From Rhodobacter capsulatus SB 1003 (GTDB lineage Bacteria > Pseudomonadota > Alphaproteobacteria > Rhodobacterales > Rhodobacteraceae), in the NCBI RefSeq assembly GCF_000021865.1, contig NC_014034.1:2010001-2042000 (forward strand): a stretch of DNA of 32,000 nt, read 5' to 3'. The translations under genes were made by a program, and so were the position numbers. Under the pieces are notes generated by a model. The model had not been told where the DNA came from. It worked only from the letters and a program-made list of their open reading frames with translations, and made no database searches. Position 1 is the stretch's first letter; each line of letters opens with the position of its first letter. Positions 3,038 to 18,685 of the stretch are shown piece after piece.

Positions 3038-3601
3038 TCAATCCTCCGCGAACAGCCCCGGGTGGCCCCGAAGCGCTTCGATCACCTTTTGCGCCATCTG
3101 CTCGATCGACAGCCCCGGCTCGGCCTCCACCGCCAGCTGCGCCAGCGCATAGACGGGATAGCGCCGCTCGATCAGCTCGGCCAGCGTCGCCTTGGGATCG
3201 GCGGTGCGCAAAAGCGGCCGCGTCGTCTTGCCCTTGACCCGGGTCCAGAGCAGCTCCAGATCCGCCTGCAGCCAGACCGAGACCCCCAGCCGCGCGATCA
3301 TCGCCCGGTTCGCCTCTGACAAAAACGCCCCGCCGCCGGTCGAGACCACCCCGGGCGTGCCCGAGAGCAGCCGCTCGATCACCTCCGATTCGCGGGCGCG
3401 AAAGAACGGCTCGCCATCGCGTTCGAAGATCTCGGCAACCGAACGCTGCGCCGCCCTGACGATCTCCTCGTCGCTGTCGTGAAACGGCACCCGCAGCGCC
3501 CGCGCCAGCGCGGTGCCCACCGCGGTCTTGCCCGCGCCCATCATCCCCACCAGCACGATCGTCTTTTGCAGACGCGGGTGAACTTGGTCTTGCCCGGTCA
3601 C
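3038..3601 (-). CDS. aroK: Shikimate kinase
   Basis: 187 aa. Walker A GMMGAGKT. The stop abuts the aroB start (TGAATG on the coding strand). Confidence 0.95.
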   Translation of the reverse strand: MTGQDQVHPRLQKTIVLVGMMGAGKTAVGTALARALRVPFHDSDEEIVRAAQRSVAEIFERDGEPFFRARESEVIERLLSGTPGVVSTGGGAFLSEANRAMIARLGVSVWLQADLELLWTRVKGKTTRPLLRTADPKATLAELIERRYPVYALAQLAVEAEPGLSIEQMAQKVIEALRGHPGLFAED

Positions 3602-3792
3602 GCAGCCCTCCCCGGCCCGGCGCCCTGCGGCGCTTGCGCATTCGTGATCTTTGCGCCCTTCAATGGCGTGAACTTTGTCGAAATGCCATATATAATCTTG
3701 CCAGCGCGACGTTTCGGCGGCATCCCCGCAGCAAGTCAGGCCAAAGCCGGTGCAGACGGTCGCAAACGAGCATAAGACAAGAAAGCAAAATC

Positions 3793-5610
3793 ATGGGGCG
3801 CATGTTCAAGGCCATTCTCGTTCTTCTTCTGGCGGCGGTGCTGGGCACGCTCGGCTATGCCTATTTCGGCGAGATGACGGCCGATCCGGTCGAGATCCGC
3901 AGCCCCGTCGCCCTGCCCGATCTGGCCCCGGCCCCGGCTGTGACACCGGCTCCGGCCGCCCCTGCGGCCGCGTCCCCGGCCCCGCAGGCCCCCGCGCAAC
4001 CGGCCCCGGCGACCGAAGCTGCGGGGGCGGGCTTGACGATTGATCGCCGTCTGCTTCTGGCCCTGACGCTGGGTCTTTGGCCTGCCCCCCCGGCGCTGGC
4101 CGAGGCGCCGATGTCGGCGATCGACTGGCTTTCGACCTCGGTCAGCGGCGTGCCGCTGCGCCCGGGCGGCGGCTCGGTGGCGGTGCTGCCCCCCGTCGCG
4201 GGCGAGGCCCCGGTTTCGGGCGCGGGCATGGTGGAGCGCATCGGCGTCGCCTCGCTGGATTCGGCGCGCAATGCCGACAGTCTCGGGCTTTTGCCCGCCA
4301 GCCGTCTGGGCCTGCCGCGCGGGCTTTGGGGCGCGACGCCCGAGGTCGATCTGGCGGCGGCGCTGCGCAAGGAGCGGCTCGATACCCTGCCCGCGGTGCA
4401 GGGCTTCCTGCTTGAACTGATGCTCGCCGAGCTGGACCCGCCGATCACCCCGGCGCCCGAGGGGCAGAACGTGCTGTTTCTGGCCCGCATCGACCGGCTG
4501 CTGGATCTGGGCGCGCTGGATCAGGCGATGGCGCTTCTGGAACAGGCCGAGCCCTCGGATCCCGAGATCTTCCGGCGCCGCTTCGATGTTGCCCTGCTTC
4601 TGGGCGAGGAAGACCATGCCTGTGAAATCATGGAGAAAACCCCCGCCGTCGCGCCCTCTTATCCGGCGCGGATCTTCTGTCTGGCGCGGCGGTCGAAATG
4701 GGATGCGGCGATGCTGACGCTGGGCACCGGCCGGGCGCTTGGGCAGATCGACAGCGAGACCGCGCTGCTTCTGGAACGGTTTCTCGATGACGAGGGCGCC
4801 GATGGTGCCACCGATCTGCCGCCGCCCGCGCGGCCGACGCCGCTCAGCTTCCGGCTGATGGAGGCGATCGGCCAGCCGATGGCGACGACGACCCTGCCCG
4901 TCGCCTTTGCCCATTCCGACCTGCGCGCCAATGCCGGCTGGAAGACGCAGATCGAGGCGGCCGAGCGGCTTTCGCGCATGGGGGTGCTGGATCCAAACCA
5001 GCTGCTTGGGCTTTACACCCAGGACCGCGCTTCTGCCTCGGGCGGGGTGTGGGACCGGGTTTCCCTTGTTTCCCAACTGGATGCGGCCCTTTCTGCAAGT
5101 GATGTCGCGCGCGTCGAGCAGGTCCTGCCCGCCGCCTGGGATCTGATGCAGGCGCAGGAGCTGGAAACCGCTTTCGCCGCGATGTTCGCGCCGCGGCTGC
5201 TGGATCTGCCGCTGACCGGCGCGGCCAGACGGCTGGCGCTGCGGCTGGCGCTGCTGACGGGCGGCTTTGAAACCGTCGTGCAGACCCGGCCCGATGCCGC
5301 CGCCGAGGAGCCGCTTCTGAGCGCGCTGGCGCGTGGCGACACCGCGCCGGTCGAGGCGCAGGATCTTCTGGGCCTGACGGTGAAGCGGGTCTTCGACGCC
5401 CCGCCCGCCGCCGTGCCCGAAGCCTATGCGGGGCTCGTGCCCGACCGGCTGGGCGAGGCGCTGCTGGCGGCGGTCGATGACATTTCCGAAGGCGCCAAGG
5501 GCGATGCGCGGCGGCTTGAATCCGGTCTGACGCTGTTGCGCAAGGCCGGGTTCGAAAGTCTGGCGCGACGCACGGCCTTGCAGCTGATCATTCTGGAGCG
5601 GCGCGGATGA
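3793..5610 (+). CDS. Membrane-anchored protein with a Pro/Ala-rich linker and a large helical domain (function unknown)
   Basis: The track ORF begins at 3634. I place the start at ATG 3793 (MGRMFKAILVLLLAAVLGTLGYAYF, a TM anchor). Then comes a PAPAVTPAPAAPAAASPAPQAPAQPAPA linker and about 500 aa of Leu/Ala-rich sequence. The stop overlaps the xerD start (ATGA). Confidence 0.7.
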   Translation: MGRMFKAILVLLLAAVLGTLGYAYFGEMTADPVEIRSPVALPDLAPAPAVTPAPAAPAAASPAPQAPAQPAPATEAAGAGLTIDRRLLLALTLGLWPAPPALAEAPMSAIDWLSTSVSGVPLRPGGGSVAVLPPVAGEAPVSGAGMVERIGVASLDSARNADSLGLLPASRLGLPRGLWGATPEVDLAAALRKERLDTLPAVQGFLLELMLAELDPPITPAPEGQNVLFLARIDRLLDLGALDQAMALLEQAEPSDPEIFRRRFDVALLLGEEDHACEIMEKTPAVAPSYPARIFCLARRSKWDAAMLTLGTGRALGQIDSETALLLERFLDDEGADGATDLPPPARPTPLSFRLMEAIGQPMATTTLPVAFAHSDLRANAGWKTQIEAAERLSRMGVLDPNQLLGLYTQDRASASGGVWDRVSLVSQLDAALSASDVARVEQVLPAAWDLMQAQELETAFAAMFAPRLLDLPLTGAARRLALRLALLTGGFETVVQTRPDAAAEEPLLSALARGDTAPVEAQDLLGLTVKRVFDAPPAAVPEAYAGLVPDRLGEALLAAVDDISEGAKGDARRLESGLTLLRKAGFESLARRTALQLIILERRG

Positions 5611-6563
5611 TCCCGATGCTGCCGCGCGAAAGGATCGCCGTCTTCCTGGAGGCGCAGGCCGCCGAGGCCGGGGCGGCGCGCAACACCATTGCCGCCTATG
5701 GCCGCGATCTGAGCGATTTTCTGGACTTCACCACGGCGAAGGGCCTTGATCTGATCACGCTGGATCGCGCCGCGGTCGAGGACTGGCTGGTCCGGCTCGA
5801 GGCCGAGGGGCTGGCGAAAGCGACCCGGGCGCGCGCGGCTCTCGGCGGTGAAGCAATTCTACCCGCTTCGCCTATGACGAGGGCTGGCGGGCGGACAACC
5901 CCGACCCTGCAGATCTCGGGGCCGGGCAAGGCGCAGCGGCTGCCGAAAACGCTGAGCATCGAGGAGGTCGAGGCGCTTCTGGAGGCCGGGCGCGATCAGG
6001 GCCGCAGCCCGGCCGAGCAGATCCGCAACCGCTGCCTGATGGAGCTGCTTTACGCCACCGGCATGCGGGTGAGCGAGCTGGTCGGCCTGCCGGTGGCGGC
6101 GGCGCGCGGCAATCCGGCGATGCTGATGGTGCGCGGCAAGGGCGACAAGGAACGGATGGTGCCGCTCTCCGCCCCGGCGCGCGAGGCGCTGGCAGCCTGG
6201 CTCGCCACCCGTGACGCCGCCGAGGAGGCGGCGCGGATCGCCCGCCGTCTGCCGCCCTCGCGCTTTCTGTTCCCGTCCTCGGGCAAGGAGGGGCATCTGA
6301 CGCGGCAGGGATTTCATGCGCTTTTGAAGGATATCGCGCTGGCGGCGGGGCTCGACCCGGCGCGGGTGACGCCGCATGTGCTGCGCCATGCCTTTGCCAC
6401 GCATCTGCTGCAGGGCGGCGCCGATCTGCGGGTGATTCAGACGCTTCTGGGCCATGCCGATCTGTCCACCACCGAAATCTACACCCATGTGCTGGAGGAG
6501 CGGCTGAAGGATCTGGTGCTGGGCCATCACCCGCTGGCCCGCCGCGCCGATCCGCAAGCTTGA
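5607..6563 (+). CDS. xerD: Site-specific tyrosine recombinase XerD (with an internal scrambled segment, see findings)
   Basis: Catalytic domain motifs ATGMRVSELVGL, HVLRHAFATHLL, LLGHADLSTTEIYTHV. The N-terminal core-binding domain is present except for residues encoded by about 5835-5903. Confidence 0.9.
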   Translation: MIPMLPRERIAVFLEAQAAEAGAARNTIAAYGRDLSDFLDFTTAKGLDLITLDRAAVEDWLVRLEAEGLAKATRARAALGGEAILPASPMTRAGGRTTPTLQISGPGKAQRLPKTLSIEEVEALLEAGRDQGRSPAEQIRNRCLMELLYATGMRVSELVGLPVAAARGNPAMLMVRGKGDKERMVPLSAPAREALAAWLATRDAAEEAARIARRLPPSRFLFPSSGKEGHLTRQGFHALLKDIALAAGLDPARVTPHVLRHAFATHLLQGGADLRVIQTLLGHADLSTTEIYTHVLEERLKDLVLGHHPLARRADPQA

Positions 6564-7949: not shown

Positions 7950-8912
7950 TTACCGGCCCAGCTTCGCCAGCCGCGCCGCGCGCAGTTTCGCGAAATCATC
8001 GCCCGCGTGATAGCTCGACCGCGTCAGGGGCGTCGCCGAGACCATCAGGAAGCCCTTGCCATAGGCCGCCTTTTCGTAATCGGCGAATTCCTCGGGCGTG
8101 ACGAAGCGGGAAACGGCATGATGTTTCGGCGTCGGCTGCAGATACTGGCCGATGGTCAGGAAATCGATGTCGGCGGCGCGCATGTCATCCATCACCTGCA
8201 GCACGCCCTGCCGGTCCTCGCCCAGCCCGACCATGATGCCGGATTTGGTGAACATCGCCGGGTCAAGCTCCTTGACGCGTTGCAGCAGCCGCAAGGAATG
8301 GAAATAGCGCGCCCCGGGCCGCACGGTCGGGTAAAGGCCGGGCACGGTCTCGAGGTTGTGGTTGAACACGTCGGGCCGGGCTTCGACAACCTTTTCAAGC
8401 GCTTCCGGGCCACACTTGAGAAAGTCGGGGGTCAGCACCTCGATCGTCGTATCCGGCGCGCGGTGGCGCACGGCGCGGATCGTCTGGGCGAAATGCTCGG
8501 CCCCGCCATCGGTGAGATCGTCGCGATCGACCGAGGTGATGACCACATGTTTCAGACCGAGCGTCGCCACCGCATGCGCCACCCGGCCGGGCTCGAACGC
8601 ATCCAGCGCCTCGGGCTTGCCGGTGGCGACGTTGCAGAAGCTGCAGCCGCGGGTGCAGGTCTCGCCCATGATCATCATCGTGGCGTGGCCGTGGCTCCAG
8701 CATTCGCCGACATTGGGGCAGCCTGCTTCCTCGCAGACGGTGACAAGCTTGTTCGTCTTCAGCAGATCGCGGGTTTCCTTGTAGCCCTGCGAGGTCGGCG
8801 CCTTGACCTTGATCCAGCCCGGTTTCTTCGGCTGGGCATTGTCAGGGCGATGCGCCTTTTCCGGGTGGCGCAGAACGGGCGCCTTGTGGGCCGGGTCCTG
8901 GATGTCGGGCAT
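7950..8912 (-). CDS. lipA: Lipoyl synthase
   Basis: 320 aa. Auxiliary cluster motif [12 protein letters not shown] and radical-SAM [10 protein letters not shown]. Confidence 0.97.
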
Positions 8913-8986: not shown

Positions 8987-10135
8987 CTAGCCGATCAGCG
9001 GCGCGGCCCCGCCATAGGTTTCGTCATAATGGCGCTTGAGCCGCATCAGCGCGATGCGCAGCACGATCTTGCCCGAACGCGCCGACCAGCCCATGCGCTT
9101 TTCCGCCGTCTCGAGCCCTTCCAGAAAACAGCAGCACCGCAGCACCATGTCGCCCAGGCCCGGCCCGAGGTCGCAAAGCGCCGCCGCCACCCGTTCCCGG
9201 GCGCGGTCAGAGCCGCCCGGACCGCCATGGCCCAGCTCGGGCCGATACTGCCCGCGGGCGCCGCCGGTCATGAAGCGTTCCCAGTTCTGCGCCACCCGCG
9301 GCCCCATCTGCGCCAGTTCGAAATCCTCGCGCAGCCGTTCCCCCGCCGCCACCAGATCGGGCGAGAGGAACGGCCGCCCGTCGCTGTCGCGCCGCCGCGC
9401 CAGCACCCCAAGCGGGCTTTCGGCCAGGTTCATCCGCATCCGCGTCACCCGGCCCTGCCCCTCGTTCACCGTGCGCTCGCCCCAGTCGCGGTGACGGTCG
9501 GCATGCGGGTTGTCCGCCGCCGTCGCGGGGTCGCGTCCCGCGGTCAAGGCCTCCGCTTCCAACAGCCGCTTCAACGCCGCCCGCCCGGTGGCGGACAGCT
9601 CGTAGCTGGTCACCCGCCCGCTGTGCTGCACCAAGATCCAGCCGTTCAGCGCAAAGCCCTGCGCCACCTCGCGCGCCACCACCGCCGTGCGCACCGTGCC
9701 CCGCAACACCACCGCCTTTTCCATGTCGGGCGCGATGATCAGCAGCGCCCCCGGCTCCGCCAGCCGCCGCAGCACCCGCCGCCCCTCGCGCGAAAGCGTC
9801 GCGATATCCGGGCTGTCGGGGTCTTCGGCGGCTTCGGGGCAGGCTTGCGGCGCAGTCGGGCGGATCGGAGCGGTCATCGCAGGGTCATCCTCTCTGGGCG
9901 GGGCGGCAGATGCGGCGGCGGCAAAGCGGCCAAGCCGGGTCAGGGCTTCGTCAACAAGCGGATCGTCGCGGCGCTGCTCGATCCGGCGCACCCGGCGCAG
10001 GATGGTCGAGGCGTGACAGCCCTCCGCCCGCGCCAGCTGCCGGATCGGCACGCCCTCCTCGACGTGACGCAGATAAAGCCGTGCATGGTCGGGCAACCAG
10101 TCCGGCAGGCTCTCCCGATCTTGCATGGTCTTCAT
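8987..10135 (-). CDS. HTH + DUF6456 regulator, GafA-like architecture
   Basis: The track ORF starts at TTG 10189. ATG 10135 has the SD GGGAGA 6 nt upstream (ATG 10126 is also possible). N-terminal HTH ([24 protein letters not shown]), a Pro/Ala/Asp-rich linker, and a C-terminal region [20 protein letters not shown]...CCCFLEGLE...[13 protein letters not shown] that I recognise as DUF6456-type. Confidence 0.7.
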
Positions 10136-10204
10136 CTCCGGTCTCCCATCGACAGGCTGGCAGTCAGATAGCGCAAACGGCATCTGCAACCGTGGGTTGC
10201 TTTG

Positions 10205-10220
10205 GTTACCCCTTGGTTAA
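10205..10220 (-). promoter_or_regulatory. Near-consensus CtrA-type box TTAA-N7-GTAAC
   Basis: The reverse strand reads TTAACCAAGGGGTAAC, against the CtrA consensus TTAA-N7-TTAAC (one mismatch). It lies 70-85 nt upstream of the ATG at 10135. On the plus strand it appears as TTGGTTA repeated at 11-bp spacing. Confidence 0.35.
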
Positions 10221-10293
10221 GAAATGGGGCGATCTCGAAAATTCTTTATAAACTCTAAAGATTTCCAAACGCAGCGTTCGGTTGAGCGAATAT

Positions 10294-10324
10294 TTGCGCA
10301 ACACCCGTTTTGGTTGCGCAACAC
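10294..10324. promoter_or_regulatory. Two copies of TTGCGCAACAC (palindromic core TTGCGCAA) spaced 20 bp apart; candidate operator
   Basis: Exact 11-mers at 10294-10304 and 10314-10324. TTGCGCAA is its own reverse complement. Located 28-58 nt upstream of the DUF6477 ATG. Confidence 0.3.
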
Positions 10325-10351
10325 TGATCCGGACCGAGTGAGGGGATCACG

Positions 10352-10660
10352 ATGACCGACCAGATCGACCAGATGGCGCGTCTGCGCCGTCCGAAACTGC
10401 TGATCCGGGCCGCACGCTTCGGGCAGCGCGATTACGACCGCAACCGCGATCTGCGCCGACTTTTGGCGACGCGCGAGCTGCCCGGCCCCGAAGCGGCGCT
10501 GCGCCTGCTGATGGCCGAGGAAGACGGGCTGGAAGCGGCGCGTCAGGCCGGAGAGGCCGGCTACAGTTTCCTGCGTCACATCGAGGTGCTGATCGCGATG
10601 ATGGCCGAGGCGCGGGGGCTGCCGCAAGCCCGGCAGCCCGCGCAGATCCGCGTCGCCTGA
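10352..10660 (+). CDS. DUF6477-family small protein
   Basis: 102 aa. SD GAGGGGA upstream. The sequence RLRRPKLLIRAARFGQRDYDRNRDLRRLL matches what I recall of the Rhodobacterales DUF6477 family. Divergent from the DUF6456 gene. Confidence 0.7.
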   Translation: MTDQIDQMARLRRPKLLIRAARFGQRDYDRNRDLRRLLATRELPGPEAALRLLMAEEDGLEAARQAGEAGYSFLRHIEVLIAMMAEARGLPQARQPAQIRVA

Positions 10661-10661
10661 T

Positions 10662-10689
10662 CCCCGATCAGCGCGCCCCGATCAGCGCG
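10662..10689. repeat. Perfect 14-bp tandem duplication CCCCGATCAGCGCG x2
   Basis: 10662-10675 is identical to 10676-10689. The second copy contains the stop codon (10682-10684) of the HerA-like gene. Confidence 0.9.
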
Positions 10690-12229
10690 CCTTGAACAGC
10701 GAGCCCAGCACCCCGCGCACGATCTGCTGACCGGCCTTGCTGCCCAGCTGCCGCGCCAGCGACTTGCCGAAGACCTCGGCGATGCTGTCGCTGCGCGAGG
10801 CCGACCCGGCCGGTCGGCGCGGGGCTGCGGGCTGGGGCTGCGGGGCCTCGAACCGGCGGGCGCGGTTGAACTCCAGCTTCGCCGCGGCGCCCCCCGCGGC
10901 GGCTTCGGCACCGGCCTTTTGCATCCGTGCCGTCAGGATCTCGAAGGCCGAGGGCCGGTCCACCGCCTGATCATATTTCGCGCCGAGGGGCGAGGCCGCG
11001 CGCAGCGCCGCGCGTTCCCCGGCCTCGAGCGGGCCAAGCCGGGACTGCGGCGGGCGCACCAGCGTGCGCTCGACCATGCCGGGCACGCCCTTCGGCTCCA
11101 GAAACGAGGTCACCGCCTCGCCGGTGCCGACCTCGCGGATCGCGGTTTCGGTGTCGAAGCGCGGATTGGGGCGATAGGTCTCGGCGGCGCGTTTCAGATC
11201 CTTCTGATCGCGCGCGGTAAAGGCGCGCAGCGCATGCTGCACCCGGTTGCCCAGCTGGCCCAGGATGTCCTCGGGCACATCGGCGGGGTTTTGCGTGATG
11301 AAATAGATGCCGACACCTTTCGAGCGGATCAGCCGCGCCACCTGTTCGACCTTGTCCACCAGCGCCTTGGGGGCATCGTCAAACAGCAGATGCGCCTCGT
11401 CGAAGAAAAACACGAACCGCGGCCGCTCGGGGTCGCCGACCTCGGGCAGATCCTCGAAAAGCTCCGACAAGAGCCAGAGCAGGAAAGTCGCGTAAAGCCG
11501 CGGGCTGCTCATCAGCCGGTCGGCGGCCAGAATGTTGACACGGCCGCGCCCGTCCGGCGCCAGCGTCATCATGTCGGCGAGATCAAGCGCCGGTTCGCCG
11601 AAAAACTGCGCCGCGCCCTGATTTTCGAGGATCAGCAGCTGGCGCTGGATCGCCCCCACCGACTCGGCCGAGATATTCCCGTAGCGCAGTTTCAGCTCGG
11701 CCGCGCGTTCGCCCACATGCACCAGCATCGCCCGCAGATCGGCCAGATCCAGCAGCGCCAGCCCCTCGGCATCGGCCAGATGAAAGGCGATGTTCAGCAC
11801 GCCTTCCTGCGCCTCGCTCAGATCAAGCAGCCGTGCCAGCAGCAAGGGCCCCATCTCGGTCACCGTCGTGCGTATCGGATGGCCCTGTTCCCCGAACAGA
11901 TCCCAGAACGTGACCGGACAGGCCCGGTAGGACAGATCATGGCCGATCGTGGCCGCACGTTTGCGAAACGCCTCGTGCAGCGGGCCGGTCTCGCTCCCCG
12001 CCGCGGCCAGGCCCGCAAGATCGCCCTTCACATCGGCCAGAAACACCGGAACCCCCGCGGCCGAGAAGCCCTCGGCCAGAACCTGCAGCGTCACCGTCTT
12101 GCCGGTGCCCGTCGCCCCCGCGATCAGCCCGTGCCGGTTGCCCGCCTTCAGCAGCAGCTCCTGCGGCTGGCGATATCCCTCGCCCCCGCCGCCGACGAAG
12201 ATCCCCGCCCCGGTCAGACCTGCGCTCAT
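10682..12229 (-). CDS. HerA-like ATPase, DUF853/YjgR family
   Basis: Start moved to ATG 12229 (MSAGLTGAGIFVGGG), preceded by GGGGGAA. Walker A GATGTGKT, Walker B-like FVFFFDEAHLLF. C-terminal Ala/Pro/Arg-rich tail. Confidence 0.88.
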   Translation of the reverse strand: MSAGLTGAGIFVGGGGEGYRQPQELLLKAGNRHGLIAGATGTGKTVTLQVLAEGFSAAGVPVFLADVKGDLAGLAAAGSETGPLHEAFRKRAATIGHDLSYRACPVTFWDLFGEQGHPIRTTVTEMGPLLLARLLDLSEAQEGVLNIAFHLADAEGLALLDLADLRAMLVHVGERAAELKLRYGNISAESVGAIQRQLLILENQGAAQFFGEPALDLADMMTLAPDGRGRVNILAADRLMSSPRLYATFLLWLLSELFEDLPEVGDPERPRFVFFFDEAHLLFDDAPKALVDKVEQVARLIRSKGVGIYFITQNPADVPEDILGQLGNRVQHALRAFTARDQKDLKRAAETYRPNPRFDTETAIREVGTGEAVTSFLEPKGVPGMVERTLVRPPQSRLGPLEAGERAALRAASPLGAKYDQAVDRPSAFEILTARMQKAGAEAAAGGAAAKLEFNRARRFEAPQPQPAAPRRPAGSASRSDSIAEVFGKSLARQLGSKAGQQIVRGVLGSLFKAR

Positions 12230-12317
12230 CCGTTCCCCCGTTGCTGCCCGGACCCGCTGTGGCCCGGCTCCCATGCGCCGCGAGAATACTTGTTTAACCC
12301 TTTTGTGCCAGTGTGGT

Positions 12318-12395
12318 TTCGTTCCGCTTCGGGCCCATTGGCCGCGGAACACTTCCTCCCTGTCAGACTGGCCGCGCCTTCGGGCGCGGTTTTTT
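12318..12395 (+). ncRNA. Candidate trans-acting sRNA with a CUUCCUCCCU (anti-SD-like) single-stranded stretch
   Basis: 5' hairpin GTTCCGC(12321-27)...GGCC-CATT-GGCC...GCGGAAC(12344-50). Then unpaired ACUUCCUCCCUGUCAGACU. Then an intrinsic terminator GCCGCGCC-TTCG-GGCGCGGT + T6 (12371-12395). No plus-strand gene lies upstream that it could terminate. The 5' end is not defined. Confidence 0.35.
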
Positions 12396-12451
12396 CGCTT
12401 TCGCGCGCAAGATCGGGACCAAAATCGCGCGCGGCCGATCATTTTTGCGTG

Positions 12452-12480
12452 TTGACCTGCGGGATATTCCGCACTAGCGT
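12452..12480 (+). promoter_or_regulatory. Sigma70-like promoter TTGACC-N17-TAGCGT
   Basis: TTGACC at 12452-12457, 17-nt spacer, TAGCGT at 12475-12480. Reads toward the IalB-family gene. Confidence 0.35.
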
Positions 12481-12511
12481 TTCCGCAATGACATAGTCGG
12501 CCAGTCCGGCA

Positions 12512-12559
12512 GGGGGAATACGGGGCTCCGGTCAACGGAGCCCTTCTTATTCGGCCCCC
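12512..12559 (+). terminator. Extended hairpin with U-tract (attenuator, or terminator of a short transcript)
   Basis: Inner stem GGGCTCCG(12523-30)/CGGAGCCC(12536-43), loop GTCAA, then TTCTTATT. An outer helix is possible: GGGGGAATA(12512-20) with TATT..CCCCC(12548-59). Lies about 30 nt downstream of the predicted promoter and 115 nt upstream of ATG 12675. Confidence 0.4.
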
Positions 12560-12674
12560 ATCCTCACGCAAGTTTCACCGCCCGCATCGGCCGCCGCGCC
12601 GGGACGGGCGCTTTTGCCCCTGACAGGCTTCGGGCGGCATGCTAAGGCGGCTCCATCCCCATGGAGGACATTTC

Positions 12675-13330: not shown

Positions 13331-14543
13331 ATGCTTTGGAAAGGATCAGCACCGCGTTCAGACCGCCAAAGGCAAAGGCATTGCTCATCACCGTGTCGAC
13401 CCGCGCCTGACGCGCCGTGCCGGGCACGACATCGAGCGGGCAGTCGGGATCGGCTGCGTCAAAGCCGAGCGTCGGCGCGATCACCCCGTCGTTCAACGCC
13501 ATCAGACAGGCCAGAAGCTCGATCGCCCCGGTGGCGCCGATGCAATGGCCGTGCATCGCCTTGGTGGAACTGACCGGAAGCCGCGGCAGATGCGCGCCGA
13601 AGATATCCGACAGCGCCGCCGCCTCGGTCTTGTCATTGGCCGCCGTGCCGGTGCCATGGGCGTTGACATATTCCACCGCCTCGGGCGGCAACCCGGCATC
13701 CGCAAGCGCCAGACGCATTGCCCGCGCCGCCCCCTCGCGCGAGGGCATGACGATGTCGCTTGCGTCCGAGGTCATGGCGAAGCCCTTGATCTCGGCCAGA
13801 ATCTCGGCGCCGCGGGCCTTGGCGCCTTCGAGCGTTTCAAGCACGAAGACGCCTGCGCCCTCGCCCTGCACCATGCCGTTGCGGCTGGCGCTGAACGGGC
13901 GGCAGCCGTCGGGCGACATCACCCGCAGCCCTTCCCAGGCCTTCAGCCCGCCGAAATTCAGCATCGATTCCGCCCCGCCCGCCAGCATGCCATCGGCGAG
14001 CCCCGCGCGGATCATCTGAAACGCCAGACCCAGCGCATGGTTCGAACTGGCGCAGGCCGTCGCCACCGCGAAACTGGGCCCCATCAGCCCGAATTCCATC
14101 GAAAGATGCGACGCCGCCGCATTGCCCATCAGCCGCGGCACGGTGAAAGGATGCACCCGGTTCTTGCCCTCGGCATAAACCGCGCGATAGGCCTCGTTCA
14201 CCGTCGCATTGCCGCCGCCCGCGGTGCCGATGATCGCACCCCAGCGGGTGTGATCACAGCTTTCCTGCGGCTGCCCCGCCTGCGCCATCGCCTGCCGCGC
14301 CGCGACCAGCGCGAATTGCGTGAAGCGGTCGTAAAGCGACAGCTTGCCCTTGTCGAAATGGCTTTCGGGGGCAAAGTCCCGCACCTGCGCGCCGATCCGG
14401 ATCGTCAGCCGCTCGACATCGGGAAAGTCGAGCGGCCCGATGCCGCACCGCCCCTCTGCCATCGCGGCGAAGGTGCCCTGCACATCCGGGGCCAGCGCAT
14501 TGACCGTTCCGGCCCCGGTGATGACGACACGTCTTTGGGTCAC
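13329..14543 (-). CDS. Beta-ketoacyl-ACP synthase (KAS I/II type, elongating)
   Basis: 404 aa. Cys-His-His triad contexts ATACASS, NAHGTGT, HGHCIGATG. The GTG start overlaps the ACP stop (GTGA). Confidence 0.93.
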   Translation of the reverse strand: MTQRRVVITGAGTVNALAPDVQGTFAAMAEGRCGIGPLDFPDVERLTIRIGAQVRDFAPESHFDKGKLSLYDRFTQFALVAARQAMAQAGQPQESCDHTRWGAIIGTAGGGNATVNEAYRAVYAEGKNRVHPFTVPRLMGNAAASHLSMEFGLMGPSFAVATACASSNHALGLAFQMIRAGLADGMLAGGAESMLNFGGLKAWEGLRVMSPDGCRPFSASRNGMVQGEGAGVFVLETLEGAKARGAEILAEIKGFAMTSDASDIVMPSREGAARAMRLALADAGLPPEAVEYVNAHGTGTAANDKTEAAALSDIFGAHLPRLPVSSTKAMHGHCIGATGAIELLACLMALNDGVIAPTLGFDAADPDCPLDVVPGTARQARVDTVMSNAFAFGGLNAVLILSKA

Positions 14544-14815
14544 GCCAGCGCCGCCTGCGGCCCCGAGATCAGCCGCTCGACCGCGCGCACGATCGCGCCG
14601 ACCGAGGAAATGTCGAACTCGCCTTGCGTCGGTTCGTTGGCGTTGAAGGGAACGGAAACCCCGAAGGTTTCCTCGATCGCGAAGATCATCTCGACAAGGC
14701 CGAGACTGTCGAGCCCCAACTCGTCAAGCGTCATGTCCGGGCGCACTTCCGCCGGTTCCATCGCAGCTTCGCGGGCGATGATCGAGAGAATCTTGTCCTG
14801 CACGTCGGGCCTCAT
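14540..14815 (-). CDS. Dedicated acyl carrier protein
   Basis: Start at ATG 14815 (MRPDVQDKILSII), 91 aa. Phosphopantetheine site DSL in LGLDSLGLVEM. Lies 7 nt after the LpxD-paralog stop. Confidence 0.88.
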   Translation of the reverse strand: MRPDVQDKILSIIAREAAMEPAEVRPDMTLDELGLDSLGLVEMIFAIEETFGVSVPFNANEPTQGEFDISSVGAIVRAVERLISGPQAALA

Positions 14816-14822
14816 CTGGCTG

Positions 14823-15923
14823 TTACTCCGTGCCCTTCTTCTGCGTGAGATTTGTAACAGTTTCCCGAAGTTCGGCCATTTGCGCAAAGAGTCGCGGCAG
14901 ACGGCGGATGTTCTTCCAGGCTTCGACATGGGTTTCCATCTTCACCGCCGGATAGCCGAGCAAAACCCGGCCCGCGGGGGCATTGGTGAAGATCTTGGTG
15001 GCGCCGCCCGCGATCACGTCATCGCCGATGAAGATATTGTCGTTCACCCCGCATTGGCCGCCCAGCACCACCCGGTCGCCGATGCGCGAGGAGCCCGCGA
15101 TGCCGACCTGACCGCAGAGCAGGCAGTCGCGGCCGATCTGCACATTGTGGCCGATGTGGACCAGGTTGTCGAGCTTGGTGCCCGAGCCGATCATCGTCGC
15201 CCGCACCGTGCCGCGGTCGATGCAGACATTGGCGCCCAGTTCCACATCATCGCCGATGACGACGGTGCCAAGGCTGTGAATCCGGGTCCAGCTTTGTTCG
15301 GTGATCGTGTCGCGCTGGCCCAATGTCTCGCGGATTTCCTCGACCCCGGATTTTTCCGGCGTGACGAAGGAAAACCCGTCGGCGCCGATCACCGCGCCGG
15401 GCTGGGCGATGAAACGATCGCCCACCACCACGCGGGCGCCGATCTTTACGCCTTGCAGAACAAGGGCTTCTTCGCCGATCTTCACATCCTCGGCAATGCA
15501 GGCATGGGCCGCGATCCGGGCCCGGTCGCCGATGCGGACGCCCCGCCCGATGACGACAAAGGGGCCGATGGCCGCCCCCGCGCCGATCTCGGCCGTGGGG
15601 TCGATGACGGCACTCGGATGGATGCCGGGCGCGATCTCGGGGCCGGGGTCGAAGGCCTTCGACAGCCCCGCCATGGCAAGCCGCGGCCGGGCGACAAAGA
15701 TCGCCGCCTTCAGCCCCAGCGCCTGCCAATCCGTGCCCTCGGGCAGGATCGCCGCCAGCGCCTGACCGGCGGCCAGCCCCGGGATGTATTTCGCGCTCAT
15801 CGCCAGCGCGATCTGCCGCGGCCCCGCCGATTGCGGCTCCGAAGCGCCCTCGATGGGCAGGGAAAGATCGCCTTCCGCACGCGCAGCAAGCGCCCGTGCA
15901 ATGGTTTCGACCGTCTGCGCCAT
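14823..15923 (-). CDS. LpxD-family UDP-3-O-acylglucosamine N-acyltransferase paralog
   Basis: 366 aa. LpxD-type N-terminal domain, hexapeptide-repeat left-handed beta-helix, catalytic His context HIGHNVQIG. There is an extra ~25-aa segment (PEKSGVEEIRETLGQRDTITEQSWTRIH) relative to the classical LpxD I know. It is not in the usual bamA-lpxD-fabZ-lpxA context. Confidence 0.85.
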   Translation of the reverse strand: MAQTVETIARALAARAEGDLSLPIEGASEPQSAGPRQIALAMSAKYIPGLAAGQALAAILPEGTDWQALGLKAAIFVARPRLAMAGLSKAFDPGPEIAPGIHPSAVIDPTAEIGAGAAIGPFVVIGRGVRIGDRARIAAHACIAEDVKIGEEALVLQGVKIGARVVVGDRFIAQPGAVIGADGFSFVTPEKSGVEEIRETLGQRDTITEQSWTRIHSLGTVVIGDDVELGANVCIDRGTVRATMIGSGTKLDNLVHIGHNVQIGRDCLLCGQVGIAGSSRIGDRVVLGGQCGVNDNIFIGDDVIAGGATKIFTNAPAGRVLLGYPAVKMETHVEAWKNIRRLPRLFAQMAELRETVTNLTQKKGTE

Positions 15924-15971
15924 GGATCTTGCCTCTCGTTGACCGGCGCCGTCCCGCGCCTCGTCCCCGAT

Positions 15972-17594
15972 TTAATTCGTCAGCGGCGCCAATGCCACCC
16001 CCGCCTTGTCCAAAGCGGCAAAGAGCGCGGCATCCCGCCCGTAGACATCGTCACGATATTCGATCCGGCCCTGGGCATTCGGGAAGGCGGTGAAATAGAC
16101 CAGATGCACCGGCACCGGATCGCGCAGCTTCACCGTCGTCTCGGCGCCGGTCTTCAGCACCGATTTGAAATAGCCCTCGGGGTCGGCTTCCTGCGCGGCC
16201 AGAAGCGCATAGGCCAGATCGAAGGGCCGACCGACCCGGATGCAGCCATGGCTGAAGGCGCGGACATCCTTTTGAAACAGGGATTTCGACGGCGTGTCAT
16301 GCAGATAGATGTTGTAGGGATTGGGGAAGAGGAACTTCACCAACCCCAGCGCATTGCCGTTCGAGGGCGGCTGACGCATCGCAAAGGGGAAGTTGCGCGC
16401 GTTATAGGCGGCGAAATTCACCGACTCGCGCGCCACCGCCCGGCCCCGGCTGTCGACCAGCTGGATATGCCCCGCCGCGCCCGGATTGCGCTGCATCATC
16501 GGCAGATATTCCTTGACCGTGATCGAGCGCGGCACCGACCAGCTCGGGTTGATCACCATCATCTCCATCACGTCGGAAAATTCCGGCGTGCGGCGGTCGC
16601 CCTGGTTCATGCCGACCACGGTCACCGTCTCGAAGCTCATCTTGCCGTCATCGACGATGCGGGCGGTGAAATCGGGCAGGTTCACCCAGATGTGCCGCTT
16701 GCCCAGATCGAGGCCGTTCATCCAGCGCAGCCGCTCCAGCGCCACAAGGATCGATTTCATCCGCTCCTCGGGGGTGCGGTTGATCCGCGCCAGCGTACCC
16801 TCGCCCGCGACGCCATCGGCCTTGATCCCCTGATCCAGCTGATAGGTCTGCACCGCCCGGTGCAGATCGCCGTCATAGGTCGCGCTGACCGAACGGCGCA
16901 GATAGCCCATGCGGATCAGCCGGTCGCGCAGCGCGATGACGCCCGGGCCGCTGTCGCCCGGGCCAAGCCGCTTCGCCGCGACTTCGGGGCCCCAGCCGCC
17001 CGTGGCGATCTCGGCCTGCAGATCAAGCCGCGCCTTGACCAGCGCCGCATAGCGCGGCGATTTCGGCGCCAGATCGCGCAGGAACCGTGCCGGCGCAGGG
17101 CTGGCAAGCAGCCCGTTCAAAAGCGCCTGCGGATCGGGGCGGCGGATCTCGCGCACGATCCCGGCATCAATCTTCTTCGGCTCGAGCGCGCCCGAGGAAA
17201 TGTCCCGCGCCCAAGCGAGATAGGCCAGCGACATCGCCGCATCCAGCTGACCGCGTTCGCGTTCGGTCTCGATCGCGGCGAACCGGGCGCGCAGCTCCTC
17301 GGCGCGATAGCGCGCCACCGGCAGGCCATTGGCATCGGCCTGATCCAGCGCGGCAAAGAAGGCCGCCCGCCGCGACGCGGCCTCGGCGGTGGTCCAGAGC
17401 GGCGCATGGCCACGCGCGGCATAAAAGGCGGCCAGCGCGGGCTCGGCCGCCGCCGTTTCCGCCACCGCCTGGGCAAAGCCCGAAAGCATCTGCGCCCGGG
17501 CCGGACCCGCCGCCACAAAGGGCGCCAGCGCCGCCCCGGCCATCATCATCGCAACAAGGGCAGCCCGGCCAACCCCAAGACAAGATGCAGTCAT
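15972..17594 (-). CDS. L,D-transpeptidase, YcbB/LdtD-like (PG-binding + YkuD domains)
   Basis: Start at ATG 17594 (MTASCLGVGRAALVAMMMAGAALAPFVAAGPARA, a signal peptide). PG-binding region (LRDRLIRMGYL...VQTYQLDQGIKADGVAG). YkuD catalytic SHGCIRV. Confidence 0.9.
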   Translation of the reverse strand: MTASCLGVGRAALVAMMMAGAALAPFVAAGPARAQMLSGFAQAVAETAAAEPALAAFYAARGHAPLWTTAEAASRRAAFFAALDQADANGLPVARYRAEELRARFAAIETERERGQLDAAMSLAYLAWARDISSGALEPKKIDAGIVREIRRPDPQALLNGLLASPAPARFLRDLAPKSPRYAALVKARLDLQAEIATGGWGPEVAAKRLGPGDSGPGVIALRDRLIRMGYLRRSVSATYDGDLHRAVQTYQLDQGIKADGVAGEGTLARINRTPEERMKSILVALERLRWMNGLDLGKRHIWVNLPDFTARIVDDGKMSFETVTVVGMNQGDRRTPEFSDVMEMMVINPSWSVPRSITVKEYLPMMQRNPGAAGHIQLVDSRGRAVARESVNFAAYNARNFPFAMRQPPSNGNALGLVKFLFPNPYNIYLHDTPSKSLFQKDVRAFSHGCIRVGRPFDLAYALLAAQEADPEGYFKSVLKTGAETTVKLRDPVPVHLVYFTAFPNAQGRIEYRDDVYGRDAALFAALDKAGVALAPLTN

Positions 17595-17783
17595 TCTGTC
17601 CCCGCCACAGAAAAGCAGCTTGCAACCTGTGGGAAAACCGGGGCCAAGTCCACCCCGCACAGGGTTTCGCCGGGGCTTTCCCCGCCTCTGCGGGCGCGAC
17701 AGATGCAAACCGGCCACAGCCCCCGGCTCTGGCAAGAAATTGCCGACAGGTCCGGTTTTCCCTACCCGCGGAAAAATGACAAT

Positions 17784-17813
17784 TTGAAACACGATTCGCT
17801 TCGTGCCATAAGA
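17784..17813 (+). promoter_or_regulatory. Sigma70-like promoter TTGAAA-N17-CATAAG upstream of the mepK-like gene
   Basis: TTGAAA at 17784-89 and CATAAG at 17807-12, within a locally AT-richer stretch. Confidence 0.3.
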
Positions 17814-17922
17814 TTGCCACGGAATCCGGGTAAGTCCGGATCAAGCCGCAAACTCAGACGGCACAGACCGAGGGACAGGCGAACCGATATGGGCACGATC
17901 ACGACTTCTCGTCGCGGGCTTC

Positions 17923-18450
17923 TTGCGGCCTTTTGCTGCCACGCTTGTGGTAGCAGCCCCGAAAGCCTCCAACGCCTTCAGCTTCCTGCGCGGCGCTGGC
18001 GATATCCGTCGGATCCACATGTATTCCGGCCGCACCGGCGAAAGCCTCGACACGATCTACTGGATCGAGGGCGAATATATCCCCGAGGCGCTGAAGGAAA
18101 TCACCCGCTTCATGCGCGACTGGCGCACCAATGACGTGAAGACGATCGATCCGCGCACCGTCGATATTGCCGCCGCCTCGCATCGTCTGCTCGACACCTC
18201 CGAACCCTATATGCTGCTGTCGGGCTACCGGTCGCCCGCGACCAATGCGATGCTGCGCTCGCGTTCGGGCGGGGTGGCGCGCAATTCGCTGCACATGCGC
18301 GGGATGGCGGCGGATCTGCGGCTGAAATCGCGCTCGGTCGGGCAGATCTATTCCGCCGCGCTGTCGTGCCATGCGGGCGGCGTCGGCAAATATGCGCGCT
18401 CGGATTTCGTGCACATGGATTGCGGCAACATCCGCAGCTGGCAGGGCTGA
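17923..18450 (+). CDS. DUF882 / peptidase M15A, YcbK(MepK)-like murein endopeptidase (the N-terminus looks frame-disrupted)
   Basis: Zinc-ligand contexts HMRGMAADL and FVHMD. The track ORF starts at TTG 17923. A twin-arginine leader [15 protein letters not shown] is encoded from ATG 17889 in the adjacent frame (see findings). Confidence 0.85.
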
Positions 18451-18608: not shown

Positions 18609-18685
18609 TGGCGCACCCGACAGGATTCGAACCTGTGACCCCTGCCTTCGGAGGGCAGTACTCTATCCAGCTGAGCTACGGGTGC
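18609..18685 (-). tRNA. tRNA-Arg (anticodon CCG)
   Basis: The reverse complement reads GCACCCGTAGCTCAGCTGGATAGAGTACTGCCCTCCGAAGGCAGGGGTCACAGGTTCGAATCCTGTCGGGTGCGCCA. Acceptor stem GCACCCG/CGGGTGC, anticodon loop CT-CCG-AA, T-loop GGTTCGAATCC, encoded CCA. Confidence 0.95.

What the first reader, a model, noticed from the sequence alone, without database searches (positions are those of the whole stretch)
8987..10660. Divergent HTH-DUF6456 (GafA-like) and DUF6477 genes with a motif-dense control region including a near-consensus CtrA box
The 382-aa protein has an N-terminal HTH, a low-complexity Pro/Ala/Asp linker, and a C-terminal DUF6456-type domain with a CCCF motif. This two-domain layout, together with a small divergent partner gene, matches what I remember of GafA (the direct activator of the Rhodobacter capsulatus gene transfer agent) and its neighbouring small gene. 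That attribution is from memory and is not verified here. The 216-bp intergenic region is the least GC-rich stretch of the window and contains the following elements:
- a hairpin GCAACC-GTG-GGTTGC (10186-10200);
- TTAACCAAGGGGTAAC on the regulator's strand (10205-10220), one mismatch from the CtrA consensus TTAA-N7-TTAAC;
- an inverted repeat TCTTTA-N7-TAAAGA (10243-10261);
- two exact TTGCGCAACAC boxes 20 bp apart (10294-10324), just upstream of the DUF6477 gene.
The role of DUF6477 and of the TTGCGCAA boxes is, as far as I know, undescribed.
Basis: partly seen in the sequence, partly recalled or inferred. Interest (0 to 1): 0.65.

Follow-up and report, generated by a model that had tools for sequence, protein, structure and literature searches.

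The report
Known gafA–rcc01866 GTA master-switch locus
This is the already well-studied gene pair and control region that switches on the gene transfer agent of Rhodobacter capsulatus, so the finding is correct but not new. One repeated box does belong to a deeply conserved, rigidly spaced DNA module that I did not find described in the papers I read.

Summary
All coordinates and motifs in the finding are correct. Published R. capsulatus SB1003 EMSA probes pGafA2, pGafA1 and pGafA3 match window 10129-10288 at 100%. The gafA qPCR primers also match, and the protein has the published length of 382 aa.

- **CtrA box:** TTAAC-N6-GTAAC (10205-10220) is the published CtrA site (Kd about 55 nM; half-site mutants lose most gene transfer).
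- **Palindrome:** the TCTTTA-N7-TAAAGA palindrome lies in the 50-mer bound by the GafA C-terminal (DUF6456) domain.
- **Hairpin:** it lies in the published gafA 5'UTR.
- **DUF6477 gene:** this is rcc01866. Its knockout makes capsids but few functional particles and no release. Its molecular function is still unknown, and I found no structural, phage or PDB relative.

Alignment-free spacing across 56 Rhodobacterales gafA loci shows a rigid module of about 116 bp. It reads GTTGC-N17-CGnnCG-N54-TTAAC-N6-GTAAC-N13-GGTTG. GTTGC (the core of box 10294-10304) is invariant in all 67 aligned intergenic regions, more conserved than the CtrA box. The second box is lineage-specific, so the direct-repeat reading fails. 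The box lies outside every published EMSA probe.

Verdict: already known, with low interest and a modest unexplored cis-element.

The parts
8987..10135 (-). gafA (rcc01865), GTA activation factor A, 382 aa. It has an N-terminal HTH, a Pro/Ala/Asp linker and a C-terminal DUF6456 domain with the CCCF motif.
   Evidence: ORF. Pfam DUF6456 E 7e-63. Published gafA qPCR primers match at 9557-9574 and 9633-9650. Published constructs end at residue 382.
10352..10660 (+). rcc01866, DUF6477 protein of 102 aa, all-helical. It is the GTA maturation/release factor of unknown mechanism.
   Evidence: Pfam PF20083 E 3.5e-35. It lies divergent to gafA in 78 of 80 related loci. AF2 model has five helices, pLDDT 78. 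The phenotype is published.
10136..10351 (.). 216-bp divergent control region. This area holds the lowest-GC stretch of the window.
10205..10220 (-). CtrA binding site TTAAC-N6-GTAAC, 69 nt upstream of the gafA ATG.
   Evidence: Unique in the window. It is identical to the published EMSA-validated site. Each half-site position is 90-96% conserved, except the last C at 76%, in 67 taxa.
10186..10200 (-). Hairpin GCAACC-CAC-GGTTGC in the published gafA 5'UTR. The 3' arm GGTTG is conserved and lies exactly 29 nt after the start of TTAAC.
   Evidence: Spacing of 29 nt in 46 of 50 taxa. Inner pairs are kept in 78-97% of taxa, with many C-to-T (G.U-compatible) changes. Outer pairs are often broken.
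10243..10261 (.). AT-rich palindrome TCTTTA-N7-TAAAGA overlapping the gafA -35 region. It is the candidate site for the GafA C-terminal (DUF6456) domain.
   Evidence: It lies inside pGafA3 (10239-10288), the only gafA promoter 50-mer bound by GafA-C 221-382. TTTA and AATTnT are 85-100% conserved. The arm pair 10260/10244 covaries: G-C 27, C-G 6, A-T 4.
10275..10280 (-). CGAACG, the conserved CGnnCG island, fixed 17 nt downstream of GTTGC on the gafA-sense strand.
   Evidence: The four C/G positions are 97-100% conserved. The start-to-start spacing of 22 nt holds in 52 of 56 taxa. The 8-mer CGAACGCT is shared by pGafA3 and pGTA2, the two GafA-C-bound probes.
10294..10304 (.). Box 1, TTGCGCAACAC. 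Its core GTTGC (10302-10298 on the gafA-sense strand) is invariant.
   Evidence: GTTGC is present in 67 of 67 aligned intergenic regions. It is 82 nt start to start from TTAAC in 44 of 56 taxa. GTTGC-N17-CGNNCG occurs in 72 of 80 loci. It lies outside all published EMSA probes, which cover 10129-10288.
10314..10324 (.). Box 2, an exact copy of box 1 that is lineage-specific. Only its CAAC(C) part recurs, as the partner of an inverted repeat with GTTGC.
   Evidence: It already differs in R. capsulatus SP108. CAAC lies exactly 10 nt (12 taxa, including the window) or 5 nt (32 taxa) before GTTGC.
10320..10325 (+). AACACT, a possible -10-like hexamer of an rcc01866 promoter, 17 nt after the invariant GCAAC. 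This is inferred.
   Evidence: The anchored profile on the rcc01866-sense strand shows GCAAC-N17-cAtnnT, with the A and T positions conserved. No TSS data were available, and the sigma-70 consensus scan found nothing.
7950..8912 (-). lipA (lipoyl synthase), the published synteny marker next to the gafA locus.
   Evidence: Pfam Radical_SAM plus LIAS_N. Hynes 2016 reports lipA adjacent in 16 of 21 genomes.

Best explanation
The finding is the gafA (rcc01865)-rcc01866 locus of Rhodobacter capsulatus, with an SB1003-type sequence. It is the master switch of the gene transfer agent RcGTA.

**Shown in the literature for this exact sequence**
- CtrA binds the TTAAC-N6-GTAAC box at about the gafA transcription start and is required for gafA transcription.
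- GafA autoactivates through its C-terminal DUF6456 domain, which binds the next 50-mer upstream. That 50-mer contains the AT-rich palindrome and the CGAACGCT element.
- GafA then activates the RcGTA structural cluster through RNA polymerase omega and, together with CtrA, the lysis genes.
- rcc01866 (DUF6477) is co-induced and is needed for particle maturation and lytic release.

**Shown here**
Its islands are GTTGC, CGnnCG, the AT-rich palindrome, the CtrA box and GGTTG.
- These islands keep exact spacing across Rhodobacterales.

**Inferred**
- The module is a phased nucleoprotein platform serving both divergent promoters.
- The palindrome is the GafA-C site. This parallels the Caulobacter GafZ palindrome, which lies between -35 and -10.
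- The invariant GTTGC/GCAAC box is either the unusual -35-like element or operator of the rcc01866 promoter, or a far-upstream activator site for gafA. I cannot tell which.
For: **Identity**
- Probes pGafA2, pGafA1 and pGafA3 and the gafA qPCR primers match at 100%.
- The protein is 382 aa.
- Pfam domains fit, and lipA synteny is as published.
- The nearest named homologues are R. capsulatus proteins at 86-91% identity.

**Published mechanism**
- CtrA binding, half-site mutagenesis and the transcription start.
- GtaR binding and GafA autoregulation.
- GafA-C binding to fragment 3.
- rcc01866 phenotype and co-induction at log2FC 5.1.

**Module**
- Per-position conservation and alignment-free spacings of 22, 60 and 29 nt.
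- GTTGC-N17-CGNNCG occurs in 72 of 80 loci.
- The palindrome arms covary.

**Analogy**
- The Caulobacter arrangement of a GafY element, an IHF element and a GafZ palindrome.
Against: - No protein is known to bind the GTTGC box, and it was never included in a published 50-mer probe.
- The published transcription start (about -87) is only an RNA-seq coverage estimate, and it places the CtrA box at an unusual position for an activator.
- No sigma-70-type promoter is detectable for either gene.
- pGTA2 and pGafA3 share CGAACGCT, but with different spacing to the other elements. The shared 8-mer is only marginally beyond chance by my own estimate (about 0.06).
- The window could come from a strain other than SB1003 that carries an identical locus. 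The identical proteins occur on a 3.85-Mb contig.
Confidence: 0.9

Rival explanations
1. The boxes are the core promoter of rcc01866. The invariant GCAAC on the + strand (10298-10302) would be an atypical -35-like element, recognised with the help of an activator such as GafA or CtrA~P. AACACT (10320-10325) would be the -10. The transcript would start near 10332, leaving a 5'UTR of about 20 nt.
For: The anchored profile shows GCAAC-N17-cAtnnT, with the A and T of the hexamer conserved. GCAAC lies 47-53 nt from the rcc01866 ATG in most taxa. rcc01866 is co-induced with the GTA genes.
Against: GCAAC does not resemble TTGACA, and the consensus scan finds no promoter. GTTGC is spaced more rigidly to the gafA-side elements (sd about 0.3 nt to CGnnCG) than to the rcc01866 ATG (sd 7.4 nt). 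An alternative + strand -10, GAAAAT at 10237-10242 (consensus GATAAT), with the CtrA box over the -35, fits equally well.
Confidence: 0.35
2. The GTTGC box is a far-upstream activator element for gafA, at about -76 to -80 from the published start. It would be bound by the N-terminal DnaA-like HTH of GafA or by an unidentified factor. The AT-rich block would provide a bend. This would mirror the Caulobacter GafY element, IHF element and core promoter.
For: The spacing to the CtrA box and core promoter is rigid. CGGGTG abuts GTTGC in the window and occurs in pGTA1 and pGTA3, the two probes bound specifically by GafA 1-86. The Caulobacter architecture is described.
Against: The GafA N-terminus is not required for autoregulation. 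CGGGTGTTGC occurs in only 13 of 73 intergenic regions, whereas GTTGC is invariant in the 67 aligned regions. No IHF consensus was recognised.
Confidence: 0.3
3. The CAAC...GTTG inverted repeat acts as an RNA hairpin in a long rcc01866 5'UTR, transcribed from a CtrA-dependent promoter with its -10 at 10237-10242. The hairpin would control translation or stability.
For: The two spacing classes differ by 5 nt (N5 and N10), which a loop tolerates better than a dimeric protein would. The window's 10249-10354 RNA folds with z = -2.4 and a 9-bp stem. In D. shibae the DUF6477 gene is induced earlier than gafA.
Against: Only 4 bp (CAAC/GTTG) are conserved. By my own tally of the sequences listed, the fifth pair is kept in only about a third of the N5 taxa. 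The arms are conserved in sequence without covariation. The long stem in the window comes from the lineage-specific box duplication. There is no Rfam match.
Confidence: 0.12

Closest known systems
R. capsulatus GafA (rcc01865) / rcc01866 locus (Hynes 2016; Fogg 2019; Sherlock and Fogg 2022)
   Same: The promoter probes and primers are identical in sequence. Protein length, domains, the CtrA site, the divergent small gene and lipA synteny all match. This is that locus.
   Different: Nothing differs in the genes. The conserved GTTGC and CGnnCG islands and the rigid spacing are not mentioned in the papers read. Fogg 2019 describes the sequences flanking the CtrA site as divergent.
Caulobacter crescentus GafYZ / IHF / RogA control of CcGTA (Gozzi 2022; Tran and Le 2024)
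   Same: GafY corresponds to the N-terminal HTH part of GafA and GafZ to the DUF6456 part. Both systems autoactivate. In Caulobacter a palindrome between -35 and -10 is the GafZ element. The promoter has several elements and a degenerate -35.
   Different: In Caulobacter the activator is split into two genes in one operon. The published locus description mentions no DUF6477 partner gene. Control is through the RogA repressor and IHF rather than a CtrA box at the activator promoter. GafZ acts as an anti-terminator there. None of this was tested for this locus.
Dinoroseobacter shibae Dshi_1584 (gafA) / Dshi_1585 (rcc01866 homologue)
   Same: The same divergent pair, predicted CtrA sites and induction by quorum sensing.
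   Different: The timing is known only there: Dshi_1585 rises at 40 min and gafA at about 2 h.
Canonical CtrA box TTAA-N7-TTAAC of Caulobacter cell-cycle promoters
   Same: Same half-site geometry, with one mismatch.
   Different: Here the box sits at about the gafA transcription start rather than over a -35. It binds unphosphorylated CtrA with high affinity (published).

Membership tests
GafA (GTA activation factor A) | C-terminal DUF6456 domain | tested here: met
   PF20057 E 7.4e-63, residues 233-372, full profile.
GafA (GTA activation factor A) | N-terminal DnaA-like / HTH DNA-binding domain | tested here: inconclusive
   HTH_23 E 2.5e-4 (21 bits, below the 24.6 cut-off) and other weak HTH hits at residues 22-60. 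There is a weak NCBIfam PRK06030 hit. The region is strongly conserved in 16 orthologues.
GafA (GTA activation factor A) | Sequence identity with published R. capsulatus gafA and its promoter | tested here: met
   160 contiguous nt (10129-10288) equal pGafA2, pGafA1 and pGafA3. The gafA qPCR primers and a cloning primer tail match inside the CDS. The length is 382 aa.
GafA (GTA activation factor A) | CtrA site TTAAC-N6-GTAAC 65-71 nt upstream of the start codon | tested here: met
   Exact motif at 10220-10205, 69 nt from the ATG.
GafA (GTA activation factor A) | Binds and activates the GTA structural-cluster promoter, interacts with RNAP omega, and a GTA cluster is present in the genome | not testable with these tools
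   The RcGTA cluster (rcc01682-01698) lies outside the 32-kb window. This is published for this sequence.
DUF6477 / Rcc01866 | Full-length PF20083 match | tested here: met
   E 3.5e-35, profile positions 1-96 of 97.
DUF6477 / Rcc01866 | Divergently adjacent to gafA | tested here: met
   True in the window and in 78 of 80 Rhodobacterales loci. The intergenic length is mostly 212-236 bp.
DUF6477 / Rcc01866 | Required for GTA maturation and release | not testable with these tools
   Published knockout phenotype.
CtrA binding site | TTAA-N7-TTAAC-type sequence conserved in orthologous promoters | tested here: met
   One mismatch to the consensus. Half-site positions are 90-96% conserved in 67 taxa, except the last C at 76%.
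CtrA binding site | Bound by CtrA | not testable with these tools
   Published EMSA on the identical 50-mer, Kd about 55 nM, plus half-site mutagenesis.
GafZ-type (DUF6456) binding palindrome between -35 and -10 (Caulobacter ZBE) | A palindrome in the core promoter bound by the DUF6456 domain | tested here: inconclusive
   The palindrome at 10243-10261 lies in the GafA-C-bound probe, and its arms covary. The probe also contains CGAACGCT, and no footprint exists.

The most novel reading that the evidence does not exclude
The indel-free module of about 116 bp is an undescribed regulatory platform of the GTA on/off switch. Its GTTGC and CGnnCG islands are invariant or nearly so, and more conserved than the validated CtrA box. 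The GTTGC box, never probed experimentally, would be the binding site of a missing factor. That factor could be the GafA N-terminal domain, Rcc01866-assisted CtrA~P, or an unknown protein. It would couple gafA and rcc01866 expression and help explain why fewer than 1% of cells switch on.
Probability: 0.35. Interest if true: 0.45.

Novelty: already known. Interest (0 to 1): 0.2.

Why it matters
GafA is the direct activator of the archetypal gene transfer agent, so this locus decides whether a cell lyses to donate DNA. The genes, the CtrA site and the autoregulation are already published, so the finding as written adds nothing new.

The small added value is a map of which intergenic positions are under the strongest constraint. 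The invariant GTTGC box and the CGnnCG island lie outside or unassigned within the tested probes. They give GTA researchers specific bases to mutate when asking how rcc01866 is transcribed, and what besides CtrA, GtaR and GafA acts at the switch.

Tried and rejected
- **Rfam:** an E-value scan of 9900-10700 found no family.
- **Promoter scan:** the sigma-70 consensus scan found no promoter on either strand. The hairpin registers as terminator-like on the + strand, but no + strand gene lies upstream of it.
- **Sigma-54 reading of TGGCAC...TTGC:** rejected by inspection. The GG of the -24 element is absent in most taxa and the spacing is wrong (sequences).
- **Other known sites:** LexA (GAAC-N7-GAAC), PpsR/CrtJ (TGT-N12-ACA) and IHF consensus readings were checked by eye on the alignment. 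None fits.
- **Direct-repeat reading of the two boxes:** rejected, because the second copy is not conserved even in R. capsulatus SP108.
- **DUF6477 function:**
  - the AF2 model gave no Foldseek PDB hit with E below 1;
  - the PDB profile search gave only a centrin hit at E 0.08;
  - NCBIfam found nothing;
  - tblastn against 50,697 phage records found nothing, even at E 10;
  - IMG/VR found nothing.
  - The published RDJLphi1 homologue could therefore not be confirmed with these tools.
- **GafA:** the PDB profile search gave no relative. The only phage-collection hit is a freshwater metagenomic contig matching the DUF6456 part alone.
- **Shared GafA motif:** comparing pGTA2 with pGafA3 yields only CGAACGCT and TAGAG at inconsistent spacing, which I judge inconclusive.
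Full report
**Observation.**
- The 382-aa ORF is 8987-10135(-) and the 102-aa ORF is 10352-10660(+). They are divergent and separated by 216 bp.
- Pfam assigns DUF6456 (E 7e-63) plus weak N-terminal HTH hits to the first ORF, and DUF6477 (E 3.5e-35) to the second.
- The hairpin (10186-10200), the CtrA-like box (10205-10220), the AT-rich palindrome (10243-10261) and the two exact TTGCGCAACAC copies (10294-10304 and 10314-10324) are all confirmed.
- The CtrA-like box is the only one in 32 kb, with 0.1 expected by chance.
- This area holds the lowest-GC 216-nt stretch of the window, at 49% against 65% overall.

**Identity.**
The literature shows that R. capsulatus GafA (rcc01865) is 382 aa long, is transcribed divergently from rcc01866, and has a CtrA site TTAAC-N6-GTAAC 65-71 nt upstream of its start codon.
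- The oligonucleotide table of Sherlock and Fogg 2022 gives the EMSA probes pGafA1, pGafA2 and pGafA3.
- These probes match window 10189-10238, 10129-10188 and 10239-10288 without a mismatch. The gafA qPCR primers match inside the ORF.
- lipA lies next to the locus, as published.
- The closest named database relatives are R. capsulatus and R. viridis proteins.
- The window is therefore the gafA-rcc01866 locus of R. capsulatus itself, with an SB1003-type sequence. It is not merely a GafA-like pair.

**What is already known about the motifs.**
- *pGafA1.* This probe carries the CtrA box and most of the hairpin. It is bound by CtrA (Kd about 55 nM) and by GtaR. Mutating either half-site cuts gene transfer to 10-22% of wild type. 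The transcription start was estimated from RNA-seq coverage at about -87, at the CtrA box.
- *pGafA3.* This probe carries the TCTTTA-N7-TAAAGA palindrome. It is the only gafA promoter fragment bound by the GafA C-terminal domain (residues 221-382, the DUF6456 part), which suffices for autoregulation.
- *rcc01866.* The knockout accumulates capsid protein, makes few functional particles and does not release them, much like a cckA mutant. The gene is induced 2^5.1-fold in the DE442 overproducer, alongside gafA at 2^5.67. Its molecular function is explicitly stated to be unknown.
- *Literature coverage.* A search for rcc01866 and DUF6477 found no later characterisation.

**New analysis of the residual unknowns: the boxes.**
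I fetched 80 gafA loci from Rhodobacterales genomes, with 55-91% GafA identity.
- 78 of the 80 carry the divergent DUF6477 gene. The intergenic length is nearly constant.
- A MAFFT alignment of 67 intergenic regions shows conserved islands in otherwise scrambled sequence. On the gafA-sense strand they are:
  - GYGTTGCG. Its GTTGC (window 10302-10298, inside box 1) is present in 67 of 67 regions.
  - CGnnCG (10280-10275), 97-100% conserved.
  - TTTA...AATTnT, the AT-rich palindrome, 85-100% conserved.
  - The CtrA box: TTAAC 90-96%, GTAA 94-96%, last C 76%.
  - GGTTG, the 3' arm of the hairpin, 84-99% conserved.
- An alignment-free measurement confirms the result and shows rigid spacing:
  - GTTGC to CGnnCG is 22 nt in 52 of 56 taxa.
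  - CGnnCG to TTAAC is 60 nt in 45 of 56.
  - TTAAC to GGTTG is 29 nt in 46 of 50.
  - The distances to the two start codons vary, with sd of 7-8 nt.
- GTTGC-N17-CGNNCG occurs upstream of gafA in 72 of 80 loci.
The exact second copy is already lost in R. capsulatus SP108.
- What recurs instead is CAAC, exactly 5 nt (32 taxa) or 10 nt (12 taxa, including this one) before GTTGC. This makes an inverted repeat, not a direct repeat.
- Box 1 starts six bases beyond the end of pGafA3, so no published 50-mer probe has tested it.

**Hairpin and palindrome.**
- *Hairpin.* The 3' arm is conserved in sequence. The 5' arm drifts, often through C-to-T changes that keep G.U pairing on the gafA-sense RNA, and the outer pairs are often broken. 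The window's 5'UTR as a whole is not unusually stable (z = +0.65). The evidence fits a short RNA hairpin or a GGTTG DNA site and does not separate the two.
- *Palindrome.* The arms covary, TCTTT/AAAGA against TGTTT/AAACA, as expected for a site bound by a dimer. GafA-C is dimeric, according to the published gel filtration.
- *Caulobacter parallel.* There the GafZ (DUF6456) element is a palindrome between -35 and -10, and a GafY element lies far upstream with an IHF site in between. By analogy, the AT-rich palindrome is the best candidate for the GafA-C site. The GTTGC box could be an upstream activator element. Both assignments are inference.

**Function of the GTTGC box.**
Three readings remain open.
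- *(a) It belongs to the rcc01866 core promoter.* On that strand the profile reads GCAAC-N17-cAtnnT. The window has AACACT at 10320-10325.
- *(b) It is an upstream element of the gafA promoter.* Its spacing to the gafA-side islands is tighter than its spacing to the rcc01866 ATG. CGGGTG, which abuts it, also occurs in the two RcGTA promoter probes bound specifically by GafA 1-86.
- *(c) It forms an RNA hairpin in a long rcc01866 leader.* The window's leader folds with z = -2.4, but only four base pairs are conserved.

No canonical sigma-70 promoter is detectable, so mapping the transcription starts is the decisive missing datum.

**DUF6477.**
- An AlphaFold2 model built from 45 homologues gives a five-helix protein (pLDDT 78, pTM 0.70).
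- Foldseek against the PDB gives nothing with E below 1.
- Sequence searches of the PDB, NCBIfam, phage genomes and IMG/VR are also empty.
- This reproduces the published statement that no function can be predicted.
- The working hypothesis rests on the cckA-like phenotype. On this view Rcc01866 is needed for the CtrA~P-dependent late stage (maturation and lysis genes), perhaps as a cofactor of GafA or CtrA. I could not test this.

**Verdict.**
The only element of novelty is the rigid, deeply conserved module and the invariant GTTGC and CGnnCG islands. These are not mentioned in the papers I read. Interest is low.

Noticed in passing
L021, L035, L036, L048, L061, L062, L068, L069, L070 (gafA-DUF6477 intergenic regions): Perfect 9-bp DnaA boxes (TTATCCACA or its complement) occur in 9 of 73 orthologous intergenic regions. 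About 0.1 would be expected by chance, by my own estimate. Most sit at two recurring positions: about 21 nt upstream of the CtrA box, and between GTTGC and CGnnCG. The window itself has none. This is intriguing because the GafA N-terminus is described as DnaA-like, and because GTA induction is linked to replication control in D. shibae.
   Followed up: partly
window 10281-10302: A 22-bp near-palindrome, GTTGAGCGAATATTTGCGCAAC, is centred on AATATT. It joins the CGAACG island to box 1. Together with the hairpin arms and box 2 it makes GTTG/CAAC tetramers about 4-fold enriched in the intergenic region.
   Followed up: partly
window 10304-10309 (- strand) and published probes pGTA1, pGTA3: The hexamer CGGGTG directly abuts the invariant GTTGC. 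It is also present in both RcGTA promoter fragments reported to bind GafA 1-86 specifically. The 10-mer CGGGTGTTGC is found in 13 of 73 intergenic regions.
   Followed up: partly
L081 (MW462191.1, 'Bacteriophage sp.' freshwater contig), locus 3237-4495: This is the only phage-collection hit to GafA, and it covers the DUF6456 part alone (43% identity). The hit gene directly follows a separate 'DNA-binding protein' gene, an arrangement like the split GafY/GafZ operon. The neighbouring genes (protease II, EvgS-like kinase) look cellular, so the contig may not be a phage.
   Followed up: no
window 10682-12571 (-): A HerA-like ATPase (HerA_C, E 3e-217) lies immediately downstream of rcc01866, convergent with it. 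The listed 629-aa TTG ORF probably starts later, because the domain begins at residue 134.
   Followed up: no
window 13545-18134 (+): A 1529-aa ORF has no Pfam match and overlaps three long ORFs on the opposite strand. It is probably a spurious high-GC ORF.
   Followed up: no
window 5607-6563 (+) and 18609-18685 (-): A XerC/D-type tyrosine recombinase gene and a tRNA-Arg(CCG) gene. Neither has an evident link to the finding.
   Followed up: no
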